A stretch of 64,000 nt of DNA from contig CABYOB010000001.1 in NCBI GenBank assembly GCA_902520385.1, positions 14,409-78,408 of the forward strand, in the 5' to 3' direction. The position numbers and the translations under genes are program-made. The notes under the pieces are model-generated. The model had not been told where the DNA came from. It ran no database searches and saw only the letters and a program-made list of their open reading frames with translations. This DNA comes from an uncultured Bacteroidota bacterium. Lineage in GTDB: Bacteria; Bacteroidota; Bacteroidia; Flavobacteriales; TMED113. Below are positions 50,924-56,961 of this stretch, one piece after another (position 1 is the stretch's first letter; each line of letters begins with the position of its first letter).

Positions 50924-53146
50924 TTATTTCACAATTAAAGGAATATAATTTGCATTGTTAATTTCTATAAAGTAAAAGCCAACATCATTTATTTTTAATT
51001 GATTTTTACCTTTTGGTAGTATATTATTTAATATTAGTTTCCCTTGTAAATTATAAATTTTAATATTATTTAAATCTTCTTTTAAATTTAAATTGAATAA
51101 TCCATTTCCAGGGTTTGGATATAACATATTATTACTATTAATTTCATCAATACTTATATTAAAATTACAATCGAATTGGTAAAAAATATTCTCGCCTATA
51201 TTTCCGTTTAAATCAGCCATTTCAAAAACATTAATAATAAAATTAGATGAGCTCAAATTAGTAAGTGAAATTATAATTTTTGTTGGGTCAAAAATATCCA
51301 TAGAAACGCTTTGAATGTCACCACCACCAACATAGAAATTTAAATCATTTACATATGAATTATCAATTTCTTCATTAAAAAATAAATATATAAAGTAGTT
51401 ATTACCAACTTCATAACATTCATGATTAGCTATGTATGGTGGAGTTGTGTCTGCTCCTGATTCAACGTCGGATGGCATTCGTAAATCTACTTTCCAATCA
51501 TTGAAAGTTGAAGAAACAACACCTGTTATTGTATATACTTCACCAATTTCTTCATCATGCTCATAGCCATCAGGTGTATTATGAATACCACATGTGCCAG
51601 AACCATCATTCACATTCCAAACACCATATCCATTTGCATTTGATGTACATTCAACATCAATCATTTTAATCAAAACTCCTTCGTACTGTTCTTGTAAAGC
51701 TTCACCACTTGTTACTAGAATTGGTTCAGGAATTGGATTATTATTACTAATTATGTAAATATCTTCTGGTTGATAAATTTCGGTTGTTCCAGGACCGTCA
51801 CATAATGAGCCATCATCCCAGCAAAATTCACTTACTTCACCTACTACAATCACGCTATCACCGATTTGAGGAAGGCCGGCGCTGCTATAAATATAAATTC
51901 CTGACCAGGGTTCAGATCCATTTTGAATGTAAAAACTATTTGCAAATGCACCGGTTACAATACCAGTTGTATTTACAAACTGTCCTTCATAGGGAGAAGA
52001 TTCTGATTCACCTTGAATTTCATTAATTGGAGTTATAACCCCTTCAAATGGAAATGGAGGTATTATCTCAGAGCCATAAAATGTTTGAGAAATACCAAAG
52101 TCATCACAAATAGTTGCAGTTATATTGTAGCAAAACATCGTGTTATACGGTTGTGCAGGAATTTGACATTCATAATTCCCATTTTCATTTAAGCTCATAT
52201 TTATACTACTTGATGTGTCCCACCAACTGTTTCCAAAATTTAAAGTCATATTTACAACAGGACAATTAATGGTACTGATTATATTAGCTGATATTGTGAA
52301 AGTTGAGCCTCCTTCAATATTTTCAGGATCAATAGAAACATTAGAAAATTGTATAGGATTAATATTTGGTTCTTCTTCAGAAAATATATAGTCAACAAAT
52401 TCAGGGTAGTCTATAAATGGGTTTCTATTTCCTTGCCATTTAAATATAATATCATTTCTTCTTTTTTCAAATGCATCAGGGGGGTCTTGTTCATGCCACT
52501 GTAAAAGTGTTGATTTATCTCCAATTTGTGGATAAGGATATGTTGTTAAACCATCAACAACAACTAAGTTAGGTTCACCTGAACCTCCTTCGTATCTAAC
52601 ATCCATATAAAATATAATTCTAGCAATGTCTCCTTTTACCTCATCTCTAGGCTCAAAAGTTGTTGTAGTTGAATAACATGAGGTTTCAACATCCCCATTA
52701 AAAACTATACTTCCGCCATTGTCAAAATCTTTTTCACCTCTAAATGTATTCATGCTACTATCAATAGGTTTTAAATTATGAGCATCTGAATAAGCAGGTT
52801 CTTCAAAAGGGTCGCCATTATCAAATTCTCCATGAGATTTTGGCCAAACATGTTCTCTGTTCCAGAAATCAGCTTGCATATTGGATGCAAAGTCAAATTT
52901 ATCAATTGAATTGCCAGAGTATACTAAGATTATATTTGAAGGATTATTTGGGTCTTCATCAGATTCCCTTAGAATATCTTTTGTTGTAGTGTAAGAATAA
53001 GAAGTGTGATCACTTATTAATTCATGAAGTTCAGATTTTAGTTCTTCACCAGATAAACCAAAACAAGATTGATAATAATCAACTGTTTGACAAATCGTAA
53101 AAAATGGGATTCCTATGTATAAAATTATATGTAAAAAGTGTTTCAT
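50924..53146 (-). CDS. secreted multidomain endonuclease I family nuclease with T9SS C-terminal sorting domain
   Basis: Signal peptide. Endonuclease_1-type motifs NREHVWPKSHG, SDAHNLKPID, FRGEKDF, KGDIARIIFYMDVRY, QGNRNPFIDYPEF. A downstream IQGESESSPYEGQFVNTTGIVTG...GDSVIVVGEVSEF module resembles those of ExeM/NucH-type extracellular nucleases. C-terminus LYPNPGNGLFNLNL...GFYFIEI... is a T9SS CTD. Confidence 0.8.
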   Translation of the reverse strand: MKHFLHIILYIGIPFFTICQTVDYYQSCFGLSGEELKSELHELISDHTSYSYTTTKDILRESDEDPNNPSNIILVYSGNSIDKFDFASNMQADFWNREHVWPKSHGEFDNGDPFEEPAYSDAHNLKPIDSSMNTFRGEKDFDNGGSIVFNGDVETSCYSTTTTFEPRDEVKGDIARIIFYMDVRYEGGSGEPNLVVVDGLTTYPYPQIGDKSTLLQWHEQDPPDAFEKRRNDIIFKWQGNRNPFIDYPEFVDYIFSEEEPNINPIQFSNVSIDPENIEGGSTFTISANIISTINCPVVNMTLNFGNSWWDTSSSINMSLNENGNYECQIPAQPYNTMFCYNITATICDDFGISQTFYGSEIIPPFPFEGVITPINEIQGESESSPYEGQFVNTTGIVTGAFANSFYIQNGSEPWSGIYIYSSAGLPQIGDSVIVVGEVSEFCWDDGSLCDGPGTTEIYQPEDIYIISNNNPIPEPILVTSGEALQEQYEGVLIKMIDVECTSNANGYGVWNVNDGSGTCGIHNTPDGYEHDEEIGEVYTITGVVSSTFNDWKVDLRMPSDVESGADTTPPYIANHECYEVGNNYFIYLFFNEEIDNSYVNDLNFYVGGGDIQSVSMDIFDPTKIIISLTNLSSSNFIINVFEMADLNGNIGENIFYQFDCNFNISIDEINSNNMLYPNPGNGLFNLNLKEDLNNIKIYNLQGKLILNNILPKGKNQLKINDVGFYFIEINNANYIPLIVK

Positions 53147-53150
53147 AGTG

Positions 53151-55970: not shown

Positions 55971-56961
55971 TTTCTACTAAAATCGGTCTGGTTTTTGTTC
56001 CATATGCATCGATAACTGAAATGAAATATAGACCTGATGAATAATTGGAAATATCAATTGTTGTTTCAATAGCATTTGATTTCGATTTTGAAATTATTTT
56101 ACCTAATTGGTTAGAAATTAATATTTCTTTTATAGCGTAGTCATTTGAAATATAAACTTTTTGAGAGTTAGTCACAGGGTTTGGGAATATTCTTAACCTA
56201 TTATTTAATTCTTCAAGATTAGAGTTTATATTGCAATCACAGTCATGAAATCCTAAATTCATAAATGTATTAACAGGAAGAGAATCCCACTCTAAAGTTG
56301 GATCAAATATAGTTGGGTTTGCAGAAACACCTTGAGCAATAAGTGGTTTTCTTATTAAAGTGTGATCTTTTGTCCAATAATTTCCTTCAGAATCGTTCCA
56401 AGAGGCTCCAGGATCTTCTCCAACTTTTCCGATCAAGTCAATTACAATACCTGTTCCTAATAATTCTAGTGTTACCGCATCATTTCCATTGAAATACATG
56501 GTTGTTGGAAATGCAGCTGCTGAATCTGGGTCTGTCCCAAAATAGTATATCGGATTCAAAAATAAATCTACTTTACTTTGTAAGTCAGTGTCTTCATTGT
56601 ATGTAGTAACTTCTTCTCCAGTTAATGAGTCAATATAAGTGTAATAACCATCCCAAACAGGCGCTTCATAACCTTCTCCATTAGGGTCTTGTTTGTCTAG
56701 GCAAACTACAAAAGTTCCGTAAGCATTAATTATTCCTGCCAGTTGAGTTGTGCTAGGAGTGGTTCCACCATTTGAATATCTTGAAATAGAATAAGATGAT
56801 AAATCAATAGTTTCTCCGGTAGGGTTATAAATTTCTAATGCTTTATTATTGGACCAGCCTTCAATATATTCAGAAAAAAATAATTGAGAACAATCTTGAC
56901 TAAATGAAATAGTAGTTAAAAATAGAGTAAAGGTTAATAGTTTTTTCATAATTATTTTCAT
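55963..56961 (-). CDS. lamin-tail-domain (LTD)-like secreted protein with T9SS C-terminal sorting domain
   Basis: Signal peptide ending SFSQ. [39 protein letters not shown] ... [21 protein letters not shown] ... DHTLIRKP matches the LTD pattern seen at the N-termini of ExeM/NucH nucleases. C-terminal [14 protein letters not shown]...SGLYFISV... is a T9SS CTD. 8-nt overlap (ATGAATAA) with the transporter gene. Confidence 0.65.
   Translation of the reverse strand: [332 protein letters not shown]

What the first reader, a model, noticed from the sequence alone, without database searches (positions are those of the whole stretch)
50924..56961. LTD protein / TonB-dependent transporter / multidomain endonuclease-I operon: candidate T9SS-dependent extracellular-DNA capture and uptake locus
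Seen in sequence: three co-directional minus-strand genes are translationally coupled. The first junction is an 8-nt overlap (ATGAATAA) at 55963-55970 and the second is a 4-nt gap at 53147-53150. A single TAnnTTTG box lies upstream at 56975-56982. Gene 1 has a signal peptide, a lamin-tail-domain-like module ([47 protein letters not shown]) and a T9SS CTD. Gene 2 is a 939-aa TonB-dependent transporter with no SusD-like partner. Gene 3 has a signal peptide, an Endonuclease_1 catalytic domain (NREHVWPKSHG, DAHNLKP, QGNRNPFIDYPEF), IQG...SPY...GIVTG...GD.V.V.G.V modules like those in ExeM/NucH extracellular nucleases, and a T9SS CTD. Established knowledge: endonuclease I enzymes (EndA/Vvn/Dns family) are secreted non-specific nucleases. 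T9SS CTD proteins are exported to the surface or medium in Bacteroidota. TonB-dependent transporters import substrates too large for porins, and in PULs they pair with a surface binding protein. Inference: this is a PUL-like module for nucleic acid rather than glycan. The LTD protein would act as the surface DNA-binding (SusD-analogous) component, the nuclease would generate oligonucleotides, and the transporter would import them (P/N/C scavenging). I know of no characterised TonB-dependent oligonucleotide importer, so if this is true it would be new. A thymidine kinase elsewhere in the window (11868-12398) fits a salvage-oriented lifestyle but proves nothing.
Basis: partly seen in the sequence, partly recalled or inferred. 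Interest (0 to 1): 0.65.

Follow-up and report, generated by a model that had tools for sequence, protein, structure and literature searches.

The report
DNA-scavenging nuclease and transporter operon

Summary
The three minus-strand genes, their 8-nt overlap, their 4-nt gap and all claimed domains are real. In 83 loci centred on orthologues of the transporter (39-87% identity, at least six orders or families of Bacteroidota), the upstream neighbour is an LTD + T9SS-CTD protein in 70 of 73 cases. The downstream neighbour is a T9SS-CTD protein with a nuclease-type domain in 62 of 64 cases. That domain is either Endonuclease I (27) or an unrelated PLD-type domain (35). This non-homologous swap argues strongly that the module handles nucleic acid. 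DUF5689 is the family of DdbD, the predicted DNA-binding lid of the B. thetaiotaomicron DNA-utilisation transporter DdbC, and of RA0C_RS04920, which is essential for natural transformation in Riemerella. A TonB-dependent DNA uptake system is therefore already published (2021, 2025). This locus is a new variant of it: T9SS-exported instead of lipoprotein, with the DUF5689-like domain fused to the nuclease and a near-invariant LTD partner. I could not test direct orthology of the transporter to DdbC. Nutrient scavenging is the most likely role; DNA uptake for transformation is the main rival.

The parts
55963..56961 (-). Gene 1: secreted LTD protein (332 aa) with a signal peptide, a lamin-tail domain carrying an insertion (conserved to about residue 245, ending in a conserved H-x-C-x-C) and a type-A T9SS C-terminal domain
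   Evidence: The orthologue sits directly upstream of the transporter in 70 of 73 loci.
56596..56895 (-). Pfam LTD match within gene 1 (residues 23-122)
   Evidence: PF00932, 42.8 bits against a cutoff of 34.3; the ExeM N-terminal region matches at 5e-19.
55990..56190 (-). T9SS C-terminal sorting domain of gene 1 (residues 258-324)
   Evidence: PF18962 1e-10; TIGR04183 4.9e-11.
53151..55970 (-). Gene 2: TonB-dependent transporter (939 aa) with a signal peptide, a CarboxypepD_reg-like N-terminal extension (residues 26-112), a TonB-box-like LNAVDIISD motif (family consensus LxEVxVVSD), a plug and a 22-strand barrel. It is not SusC-type and has no SusD partner.
   Evidence: AF2 model with pLDDT 77. 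Foldseek against the PDB returns only TonB-dependent transporters, at 10-14% identity.
50924..53146 (-). Gene 3: secreted multidomain nuclease (740 aa): signal peptide, Endonuclease I, an Ig-like domain, a DUF5689-like domain, a second Ig-like domain and a T9SS CTD
52400..53050 (-). Endonuclease I catalytic domain (residues 33-249) with invariant EH, DxHNLxP, N133 and GNRNPF motifs
   Evidence: 2.4e-41, full-length profile match. (invariant columns). (alignment to Vvn structures 1OUO/1OUP).
51425..52036 (-). DUF5689-like domain (residues 371-574).
   Evidence: hhalign against DUF5689 domains of PLD-type neighbours, 99.8%, E 9.7e-29. PF18942 is recorded in 43-45% identical orthologues and in L088 and L089. 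PDB 9sf8/9sf9 residues 1-97; pLDDT 80-90.
50948..51124 (-). T9SS C-terminal sorting domain of gene 3 (residues 675-733)
   Evidence: One search also matches solved T9SS CTD chains (8glj_D, 8glk_D 'Endonuclease I').
56975..56982 (-). TATATTTG, a Bacteroidota -7-like box in the 89-nt divergent intergenic region, 14 nt upstream of the gene 1 ATG
   Evidence: It is present, but the motif is not enriched in the window (114 observed against 129 expected).
55963..55970 (-). 8-nt stop/start overlap (ATGAATAA) between gene 1 and gene 2

Best explanation
This is a T9SS-linked nucleic-acid utilisation operon and a member of an ancient module found across Bacteroidota.

Proposed mechanism:
1. The type IX secretion system exports two cargo proteins, the LTD protein and the nuclease, to the cell surface or medium. 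The CTDs are shown; the secretion itself is inferred.
2. The nuclease holds extracellular DNA (and probably RNA) through its DUF5689-like domain. This domain is homologous to the OB-type region that ExeM needs for activity, and it belongs to the family of DdbD, the predicted dsDNA-binding lid. The nuclease then cuts the substrate with its endonuclease-I active site. The motifs are shown; the activity is inferred.
3. The dedicated TonB-dependent transporter between the two genes imports the resulting fragments into the periplasm, using TonB energy. This step is inferred from gene linkage and from the ddb and Riemerella precedents.
4. The LTD protein is an obligate accessory of this transporter family, either a surface DNA-tethering protein (SusE/F-like) or a second lid component. 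Its mode of action is unknown.
5. The imported material is further degraded and used as a source of phosphorus, nitrogen, carbon and nucleotides by enzymes encoded elsewhere.
For: 1. The domains and operon structure are confirmed.

2. Conservation. In the 83 loci analysed, spanning Flavobacteriales, Bacteroidales, Marinilabiliales, Saprospiraceae, Chitinophagales and Sphingobacteriales, the same-strand upstream neighbour carries LTD in 70 of 73 and a T9SS CTD in 71 of 73. The same-strand downstream neighbour carries a T9SS CTD in 62 of 64.

3. Non-homologous displacement of the catalytic domain. The downstream proteins are DUF5689like-PLD (35), EndoI-DUF5689like (11, the window type), DUF5689like-EndoI (4), Ig-like + EndoI (12) and DUF5689like only (2). 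Some loci add further nucleases: a PLD-type or a second EndoI protein in L041, L074 and L048, and an EEP protein plus two EndoI proteins in L088.

4. The middle domain of gene 3 is homologous to DUF5689. Pfam itself records PF18942 in orthologues with the same architecture.

5. Literature:
- ddbABCDEF (TonB-dependent transporter DdbC, DUF5689 protein DdbD, three active nucleases) is required for exogenous DNA depletion in B. thetaiotaomicron. DdbD is modelled as a p202-like dsDNA binder capping DdbC (PMC12478041).
- The Riemerella pair of a TBDT-like protein and a DUF5689 protein is essential for natural transformation (PMC8459023).
- In F. johnsoniae, LTD + EndoI nucleases are induced by phosphate depletion (PMC8115612).
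- A T9SS-secreted EndoI of R. anatipestifer has DNase and RNase activity (PMC12398890).
- Marine Bacteroidota, including Lutibacter, assimilate 13C-DNA and commonly encode secreted nucleases (PMC8289736).

6. The transporter has a TonB-box-like motif, a plug and a barrel, and no specific relative among characterised importers.
Against: - There is no experiment on this family. Uptake, substrate size and DNA binding are all inferred.
- Direct sequence comparison of the transporter with DdbC (WP_008762511.1) or RA0C_RS04915 could not be done, so homology to the characterised systems rests on the DUF5689 partner and the locus logic.
- 12 of 64 loci have no detectable DUF5689-like domain in the neighbouring nuclease, so that domain cannot be an obligatory lid.
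- All extracellular domains, including the LTD and DUF5689-like domains, are strongly acidic (pI about 4). This gives no electrostatic signature of DNA binding, although the bona fide nuclease domain is equally acidic.
- The operon contains no periplasmic nucleotidase or phosphatase, no inner-membrane transporter and no regulator.
- The PLD-type domains are assumed, not shown, to be nucleases.
- The AF2 model of the EndoI domain is poor (pLDDT below 50 for residues 49-171).
Confidence: 0.6

Rival explanations
1. The module is an outer-membrane DNA-uptake machine for natural transformation. The transporter, with its DUF5689-like and LTD partners, brings long DNA into the periplasm for ComEC, DprA and RecA, as proposed for RA0C_RS04915 and RA0C_RS04920 in Riemerella anatipestifer. 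The nuclease domain would only trim or nick the substrate. This reading is not exclusive of nutrient use.
For: - In R. anatipestifer, markerless deletions of the TBDT-like gene and of the adjacent DUF5689 gene abolish transformation (PMC8459023).
- The ddb paper regards the two systems as evolutionarily related (PMC12478041).
- The module sits in a conserved housekeeping neighbourhood and is vertically inherited. This is compatible with a core cellular function.
Against: - A non-specific endonuclease is fused to, or next to, the binding domain in 62 of 64 loci, and up to four nucleases occur per locus. This would destroy transforming DNA.
- The Riemerella partner has DUF5689 + DUF5017, and a nuclease domain is not among the domains Huang et al. 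list for it. DUF5017 was not among the families found here.
- No competence gene was found among the window genes I scanned, but only part of the window was scanned.
- Orthology to RA0C_RS04915 is untested.
Confidence: 0.2
2. The secreted nuclease and the LTD protein act only outside the cell, in eDNA matrix or biofilm remodelling, escape from DNA traps, or competition. The transporter imports something else, or only senses.
For: - BT3563 in the B. thetaiotaomicron locus was first characterised as an extracellular DNase needed for bile-dependent biofilm formation (PMC8851478).
- The T9SS nucleases of R. anatipestifer are linked to virulence.
- ExeM affects biofilms (PMC6085458).
Against: - The transporter is the anchor of the conserved module, and the nuclease type varies around it. 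This is hard to explain if the transporter were functionally unrelated.
- The host looks like a free-living, streamlined planktonic flavobacterium (27% GC, compact housekeeping gene content), for which biofilm or host-trap roles are less obvious.
- In B. thetaiotaomicron the whole locus is required for DNA depletion and for nucleobase production.
Confidence: 0.12
3. The real substrate is another phosphodiester polymer or phospho-compound, for example RNA only, teichoic-acid-like polymers or phospholipid head groups. DNA would be incidental.
For: - Endonuclease I enzymes cut RNA as well as DNA (R. anatipestifer EndoI).
- The commonest catalytic domain in the family is PLD-like (35 of 64), a superfamily that includes phospholipases as well as nucleases.
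Against: - The PLD domains are fused to DUF5689, the family of the predicted DNA-binding protein DdbD.
- The PLD domain is interchangeable with Endonuclease I and co-occurs with EndoI and EEP nucleases in single loci.
- RNA as a co-substrate is compatible with the main explanation.
Confidence: 0.08

Closest known systems
ddbABCDEF DNA-utilisation locus of Bacteroides thetaiotaomicron (Sharan et al., PNAS 2025, PMC12478041; BT3558-BT3563 region, Bechon et al. 2022, PMC8851478)
   Same: A TonB-dependent transporter sits next to a DUF5689-family protein, surrounded by secreted nucleases, in a PUL-like arrangement for DNA. The locus is required for depletion of exogenous DNA. The DUF5689 protein is predicted to cap the transporter and to resemble a dsDNA-binding HIN/OB domain.
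   Different: - In the window the surface proteins carry T9SS CTDs, not lipoprotein (SPII) signals.
- The DUF5689-like domain is fused to the nuclease instead of being a separate DdbD.
- The nuclease is Endonuclease I (PLD-type in most relatives), whereas BT3562 and BT3563 are EEP-type.
- An LTD protein is the constant upstream partner. The word 'lamin' does not occur in the ddb paper's text.
- Sequence identity of the transporter to DdbC is unknown. Bt-type and Pv-type DdbC themselves share only about 25%.
Riemerella anatipestifer natural-transformation genes RA0C_RS04915 (CarboxypepD_reg TBDT-like) and RA0C_RS04920 (DUF5689 + DUF5017) (Huang et al. 2021, PMC8459023)
   Same: A Flavobacteriales organism with a T9SS. 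An outer-membrane barrel protein with a CarboxypepD_reg N-terminal domain is followed by a DUF5689 protein in one operon. Homologues are reported across Flavobacteriaceae.
   Different: - The demonstrated role there is transformation.
- A nuclease domain is not among the domains listed for the partner protein, which has DUF5017.
- The upstream neighbour is reported as a DdbB-like nuclease, not an LTD protein.
- Orthology to the window's transporter is not established.
ExeM/NucH extracellular nucleases (Shewanella ExeM, Binnenkade et al. 2018, PMC6085458; PDB 9sf8/9sf9 EEP-domain proteins)
   Same: The same building blocks are present: an N-terminal LTD, an OB-type 'IQG...SPY' region and a nuclease domain. 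Gene 1 matches the ExeM N-terminus (5e-19). Gene 3 residues 364-453 match residues 1-97 of 9sf8.
   Different: - ExeM is one polypeptide with an EEP catalytic domain and a GlyGly-CTERM anchor, and it has no dedicated transporter.
- In the window the LTD and the OB + nuclease parts are separate T9SS cargo proteins that flank a transporter.
- In ExeM the LTD is dispensable for DNA degradation.
Endonuclease I family (Vvn, EndA, Dns, VsEndA; R. anatipestifer T9SS EndoI)
   Same: The full-length PF04231 domain is present with the conserved motifs. The enzyme is a secreted or periplasmic non-specific Mg2+-dependent nuclease. A T9SS-exported EndoI with DNase and RNase activity is documented in Riemerella.
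   Different: The window protein is three times larger, with Ig-like, DUF5689-like and CTD modules, and its gene is tied to a transporter.
SusCD-type polysaccharide utilisation loci
   Same: The logic is the same: a surface binding protein, a surface hydrolase and a TonB-dependent importer in one operon.
   Different: The transporter is not SusC/RagA-type (no TIGR04056 hit). There is no SusD or TPR lipoprotein. The substrate enzymes are nucleases.
Phosphate-starvation nucleases EndA1 and EndA2 (Fjoh_4721, Fjoh_4723) of Flavobacterium johnsoniae (Lidbury et al. 2020, PMC8115612)
   Same: They are secreted flavobacterial proteins combining fn3, LTD and Endonuclease I, induced under phosphate depletion. 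This supports a phosphorus-scavenging role for this kind of protein.
   Different: The paper lists them as 'orphan' genes with no transporter described next to them, and the LTD is fused to the nuclease.

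Membership tests
Ddb-type DNA-utilisation locus (DdbC/DdbD + nucleases) | A TonB-dependent transporter gene directly followed by a gene encoding a DUF5689 (PF18942) domain | tested here: met
   - Gene 3 residues 371-574 are homologous to DUF5689 domains (hhalign 99.8%, E 9.7e-29).
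- PF18942 is recorded by Pfam in 33 of 64 downstream neighbours and in orthologues with the same architecture.
- The window protein itself does not reach the Pfam threshold.
Ddb-type DNA-utilisation locus (DdbC/DdbD + nucleases) | Secreted nucleases encoded in the same locus | tested here: met
   Endonuclease_1 at 2.4e-41 with a T9SS CTD. 62 of 64 related loci carry EndoI or PLD-type domains.
Ddb-type DNA-utilisation locus (DdbC/DdbD + nucleases) | The transporter is a sequence homologue of DdbC (WP_008762511.1) beyond generic TBDT similarity | not testable with these tools
   No DdbC or BT3560 sequence could be obtained. The afdb50 library was unavailable. A search seeded from a Bacteroidaceae orthologue returned only uncultured relatives.
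Ddb-type DNA-utilisation locus (DdbC/DdbD + nucleases) | Surface components are lipoproteins (SPII with a lipoprotein export signal) | tested here: not met
   Both surface proteins carry type-A T9SS CTDs. The Cys at residue 19 of gene 3 is not conserved; the family consensus there is 'AQ'.
Ddb-type DNA-utilisation locus (DdbC/DdbD + nucleases) | The locus is required for depletion or uptake of exogenous DNA | not testable with these tools
   This needs genetics in a cultivable carrier.
Riemerella-type outer-membrane DNA uptake for natural transformation | A TBDT-like protein with a CarboxypepD_reg N-terminal domain plus an adjacent DUF5689 + DUF5017 protein | tested here: inconclusive
   The CarboxypepD_reg domain is present and a DUF5689-like domain is present. 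DUF5017 is not among the families detected in 64 neighbours. Orthology to RA0C_RS04915 is untested.
Riemerella-type outer-membrane DNA uptake for natural transformation | Competence genes (comEC, dprA, comF) in the genome and a transformation phenotype | not tested
   Only 64 kb is available. The ten large window ORFs scanned are housekeeping genes or have no Pfam hit.
Endonuclease I (PF04231; Vvn/EndA/Dns) | A full-length domain above the Pfam threshold, with the catalytic His/Glu and the metal-binding Asn | tested here: met
   - 142.5 bits against a cutoff of 25, profile positions 2-235 of 235.
- E98-H99, D121, H123, N133 and N240-F244 are invariant in 41 homologues.
- N133 aligns with Vvn chain residue N109, which is Asn127 of the precursor.
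- Equating H99 with Vvn His80 rests on the motif and my own knowledge of Vvn, not on an alignment obtained here.
T9SS type-A cargo (TIGR04183 / PF18962) | A C-terminal sorting domain at the extreme C-terminus plus an N-terminal signal peptide | tested here: met
   for genes 1 and 3. The CTD of gene 3 also matches solved T9SS CTD chains. Presence of T9SS machinery genes in this genome was not checked.
TonB-dependent transporter | A plug domain, a 22-strand barrel and a TonB box | tested here: met
   - Plug at 47.4 bits and barrel at 30.7 bits.
- AF2 model with pLDDT 77 and pTM 0.74.
- Foldseek E 1e-25 to 1e-32 against many transporters.
- TonB-box-like LxEVxVVSD is conserved between the N-terminal extension and the plug.
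SusC/RagA-SusD polysaccharide utilisation locus | A SusC/RagA-family transporter (TIGR04056) with an adjacent SusD-family lipoprotein | tested here: not met
   There is no TIGR04056 hit. No SusD-family Pfam appears in any neighbour.
ExeM/NucH extracellular nuclease | A single protein with LTD, an OB-type region and an EEP catalytic domain | tested here: not met
   The ExeM and NucH models are hit only partially and far below their cutoffs (67.8 against 1300 bits; 20.8 against 300 bits). There is no EEP domain, and the LTD and OB parts lie on different proteins.

The most novel reading that the evidence does not exclude
The invariant pair is the LTD-CTD protein plus this transporter family, not DUF5689 plus the transporter. 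Under this reading it is the ancestral, phylum-wide outer-membrane DNA receptor of Bacteroidota, with the T9SS-anchored LTD protein acting as a new kind of non-lipoprotein lid or DNA tether. In abundant planktonic Flavobacteriia it would import DNA fragments long enough to serve both as food and as substrate for natural transformation. That would imply that competence is widespread among marine Bacteroidota.
Probability: 0.15. Interest if true: 0.75.

Novelty: new variant of a known kind. Interest (0 to 1): 0.55.

Why it matters
Dissolved DNA is a major pool of organic phosphorus and nitrogen in the sea, and Bacteroidota are prominent consumers of it. How the polymer crosses their outer membrane has so far been addressed only in gut Bacteroides and, for transformation, in Riemerella.

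This analysis gives three things:
- A compact three-gene module is conserved across orders and, in many genomes, sits in the same housekeeping neighbourhood. It therefore looks vertically inherited.
- The catalytic domain has been swapped between unrelated nuclease folds, while the transporter and the LTD partner stay fixed.
- The components travel through the T9SS.

The module is a simple genomic marker for DNA-foraging potential in metagenomes. It extends the ddb concept from the gut to the ocean, soil and sediments. It also singles out the LTD protein as an uncharacterised but nearly obligatory component worth testing.

Tried and rejected
1. I tried three routes to a DdbC, BT3560 or RA0C_RS04915 sequence for a direct comparison. 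Cluster look-ups of NCBI-derived hits and a homology search seeded from a Bacteroidaceae orthologue returned only uncultured relatives. The AlphaFold-DB fold search was not installed.

2. Foldseek of the whole nuclease model against the PDB gave only generic strings of Ig-like domains. It could therefore neither confirm nor refute the p202/HIN-like fold reported for DdbD.

3. Pfam does not detect DUF5689 in the window protein itself, even at E <= 10. The link needed a profile-profile comparison.

4. I tested whether the 12 'Ig-like + EndoI' neighbours hide a divergent DUF5689-like domain. hhalign was negative (probability 0.1%).

5. I considered the TAnnTTTG box as evidence for a promoter. It has no statistical weight. 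The sigma-70 and terminator scans were at chance level.

6. I considered isoelectric point as a test for DNA binding. It is uninformative, because every extracellular domain, including the nuclease domain, has a pI near 4.

7. I considered a SusCD-type PUL and rejected it (no SusC-model hit, no SusD). I considered a siderophore or cobalamin receptor and rejected it (only plug-level similarity).

8. A literature search for 'TonB-dependent' + 'lamin tail domain' + 'nuclease' found no paper.

Full report
**1. Observation**

The first junction is the 8-nt overlap ATGAATAA and the second is a 4-nt gap.

Pfam and NCBIfam confirm every claimed domain:
- Gene 1 has LTD and a type-A T9SS CTD. Its N-terminus matches the N-terminus of ExeM (5e-19).
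- Gene 2 has a CarboxypepD_reg-like N-terminal extension, a plug and a barrel. It has no SusC/RagA signature.
- Gene 3 has a full-length Endonuclease_1 domain (2.4e-41) and a T9SS CTD. It also has a weak ExeM/NucH match at residues 394-495.

The TAnnTTTG box at 56975-56982 exists. The motif occurs 114 times in the window against 129 +/- 10.6 expected, and six more minus-strand copies lie inside the operon. It therefore carries no statistical weight. Generic promoter and terminator scans are at chance level. The window has about 27% GC.

**2. Conservation**

The transporter has thousands of homologues.

I analysed 83 non-redundant loci with transporter identity of 39-87%. By record title they come from Flavobacteriales, Cryomorphaceae, Crocinitomicaceae, Bacteroidales, Marinilabiliales, Prolixibacteraceae, Lentimicrobiaceae, Saprospiraceae, Chitinophagales and a Sphingobacteriales MAG.

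The same-strand upstream neighbour carries LTD in 70 of 73 cases and a T9SS CTD in 71 of 73. The same-strand downstream neighbour carries a T9SS CTD in 62 of 64 cases.

The downstream catalytic domain is Endonuclease I in 26 (27 by my local profile) and PLDc_2 in 35. These two folds are unrelated. Local profiles give these architectures:

| Downstream protein | Loci |
|---|---|
| DUF5689like-PLD | 35 |
| EndoI-DUF5689like (the window type) | 11 |
| DUF5689like-EndoI | 4 |
| Ig-like N-terminus + EndoI | 12 |
| DUF5689like only | 2 |

Some loci carry extra nucleases. L041 and L074 add a PLD-type protein and L048 adds a second EndoI protein. L088 adds an EEP protein and two more EndoI proteins.

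Replacement of the enzyme by a non-homologous enzyme of the same class, around a fixed transporter, is strong evidence that the module as a whole handles nucleic acid.

The module also sits in an old housekeeping neighbourhood. A GT2 and dihydroorotase-like pair flanks it in 31 of 83 loci, divergently in Flavobacteriales and co-directionally downstream in Bacteroidales and Marinilabiliales. Mfd lies upstream in two Bacteroidales loci that I scanned. This points to vertical inheritance rather than a mobile island.

Tight stop/start coupling is not general. Median gaps are about 60 nt and about 24 nt, approximate because starts were taken as the first ATG.

**3. The 'IQG...SPY' module**

Residues 371-574 of gene 3 align with the N-terminal domains of the PLD-type neighbours by BLASTP. 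A profile-profile comparison gives 99.8% probability and E 9.7e-29. Those N-terminal domains are Pfam DUF5689 members, for example L086 at 47.8 bits against a cutoff of 28.6.

Pfam records PF18942 directly in orthologues of gene 3 at 43-45% identity, and in L088 and L089, which have the same EndoI-DUF5689-CTD order. The window protein itself stays below Pfam's detection.

The same region matches residues 1-97 of the solved EEP-domain proteins 9sf8 and 9sf9. It corresponds to the ExeM/NucH OB-type region, which is indispensable for ExeM activity (PMC6085458). In the AF2 model this domain is confidently folded (pLDDT 80-90), whereas the EndoI part is not.

**4. What is already known**

Three papers bear directly on the interpretation.

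- Huang et al. 2021 (PMC8459023) showed that in Riemerella anatipestifer a CarboxypepD_reg-containing outer-membrane protein (RA0C_RS04915) and the adjacent DUF5689 + DUF5017 protein (RA0C_RS04920) are each essential for natural transformation. They proposed that the pair takes DNA across the outer membrane.
- Bechon et al. 2022 (PMC8851478) described the BT3560-BT3563 operon of B. thetaiotaomicron. It encodes a TonB-dependent receptor, a hypothetical protein and two EEP lipoprotein nucleases.
- Sharan et al. 2025 (PMC12478041) named the locus ddbABCDEF. They showed that three of its proteins are nucleases and that the locus is required for exogenous DNA depletion and nucleobase production. 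They identified DdbD as a DUF5689 protein predicted to cap the transporter DdbC and to resemble the dsDNA-binding domain of p202. They pointed out both the PUL-like logic and the relationship to the Riemerella genes.

Supporting context:
- LTD + EndoI nucleases of F. johnsoniae are induced by phosphate depletion (PMC8115612).
- A T9SS-secreted EndoI of Riemerella has DNase and RNase activity.
- Marine Bacteroidota assimilate DNA carbon and commonly encode secreted nucleases (PMC8289736).

**5. Mechanism proposed**

*Shown by sequence:*
- Signal peptides and T9SS CTDs on genes 1 and 3.
- An intact endonuclease-I motif set (invariant R97-E98-H99, D121/H123/P127, N133, N240-F244 in 41 homologues). 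N133 aligns with Vvn Asn127.
- A transporter with a TonB-box-like motif (LNAVDIISD; family consensus LxEVxVVSD), a plug and a 22-strand barrel.
- A DUF5689-like domain in the nuclease.

*Inferred:*
- The T9SS places both cargo proteins at the surface.
- The DUF5689-like domain holds DNA, possibly at the mouth of the transporter as proposed for DdbD.
- The EndoI domain cuts the DNA.
- The transporter imports the fragments.
- Enzymes encoded elsewhere finish the job.

The LTD protein is the least understood part. It is the most constant partner of the transporter (70 of 73), more constant than DUF5689 (52 of 64; the 12 exceptions were tested and are negative). However, the only experiment on a bacterial LTD found it dispensable for DNA degradation, and its role is not established.

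All extracellular domains are strongly acidic (pI about 4). Charge therefore gives no hint of DNA binding. The same holds for the nuclease domain, so this is not evidence against binding.

**6. Rivals**

- Uptake for natural transformation is the serious alternative, because it is the only demonstrated function of a flavobacterial TBDT-DUF5689 pair. The near-universal presence of one to four non-specific nucleases in these loci argues against it as the main role. The two roles are not exclusive.
- Purely extracellular roles (biofilm, traps) do not explain why the transporter is the fixed anchor.
- A non-DNA phosphodiester substrate is conceivable for the PLD-type loci. It fits poorly with their interchangeability with EndoI and their co-occurrence with EndoI and EEP nucleases.

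**7. Membership and novelty**

The locus meets the architectural definition of a ddb-like locus: a transporter, an adjacent DUF5689-family domain and secreted nucleases. It fails the lipoprotein feature, because its surface proteins are T9SS cargo.

I could not test whether the transporter is a DdbC or RA0C_RS04915 orthologue, because no sequence was obtainable. It has no specific relative among solved transporters.

The differences from the published systems are:
- T9SS export.
- Fusion of the DUF5689-like domain to the nuclease.
- EndoI or PLD chemistry instead of EEP.
- The LTD partner.
- The phylum-wide environmental distribution.

I found no paper describing these features together. I therefore rate it a new variant of a known kind. 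It is interesting for marine phosphorus and nitrogen cycling and for transporter biology, but it is not categorically new.

Noticed in passing
window 49680-50923 (+), poly-G at about 50127-50138: The DUF819 gene convergent with the nuclease is split into two ORFs (49680-50156 and 50090-50923). The split is a +2 frameshift in a run of 12 G, where the close relative L042 has AGGTGGAGGA. A G12 run in a 27% GC genome suggests a sequencing or assembly artefact, or possibly a slippage-prone tract. The gene's stop at 50923 abuts the nuclease stop codon (50924-50926), so there is no intergenic spacer.
   Followed up: partly
window 57051-59125 (+); L022, L028-L030, L034, L035, L037, L038, L040, L049, L058 downstream of the nuclease: A GT2 glycosyltransferase and dihydroorotase-like amidohydrolase pair lies next to the triad in 31 of 83 loci across orders. 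It is divergent upstream in Flavobacteriales and co-directional downstream in Bacteroidales and Marinilabiliales. I do not know whether this is only ancient synteny or a functional link, for example between pyrimidine synthesis and salvage.
   Followed up: partly
L009, L019, L031, L036, L039, L043, L051, L060, L064, L071, L073, L075 (gene downstream of the transporter): In twelve loci the T9SS endonuclease-I protein has an Ig-like, ASH or fn3 N-terminal half of about 400 aa instead of a DUF5689-like domain (hhalign negative). The LTD gene is still upstream wherever upstream sequence is available (L075 has none). So the DUF5689-like domain is not obligatory for this transporter family.
   Followed up: partly
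L088 1-20730 (4.08-Mb contig): This locus is very rich in nucleases: LTD, a small GIY-YIG ORF inserted before the transporter, the transporter, EndoI + DUF5689 + CTD, an EEP (Exo_endo_phos_3) protein and two more EndoI + CTD proteins. Upstream is a DUF6359 + CTD protein.
   Followed up: no
L026 (JBLGCF010000085.1): A 4.9-kb contig carrying the LTD-transporter pair typical of Bacteroidota is filed under a MAG labelled Thalassomonas sp. (Gammaproteobacteria). Binning contamination seems more likely than lateral transfer.
   Followed up: no
window 27563-29038 (+) and 30940-32946 (+): Two large ORFs (491 and 668 aa) have no Pfam match at E <= 1e-5, in an otherwise housekeeping region (DnaG, ribonucleotide reductase, PurH, PBP2, BamA).
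   Followed up: no
gene 3 residues 364-453 (window about 51788-52057): The best solved-structure match for the DUF5689-like domain is the N-terminus of PDB 9sf8 and 9sf9, annotated only as 'Endonuclease/exonuclease/phosphatase domain-containing protein' and apparently a recent ExeM/NucH-type structure. It could serve as a template to test the OB or HIN-like fold.
   Followed up: no
L086 13357-17892 and L089 943-3717: CotH-domain proteins, one of them with a T9SS CTD, and a Metalloenzyme-family (phosphatase-like) protein lie near the triad in two distant loci. They may be further members of a phosphorus-scavenging neighbourhood.
   Followed up: no
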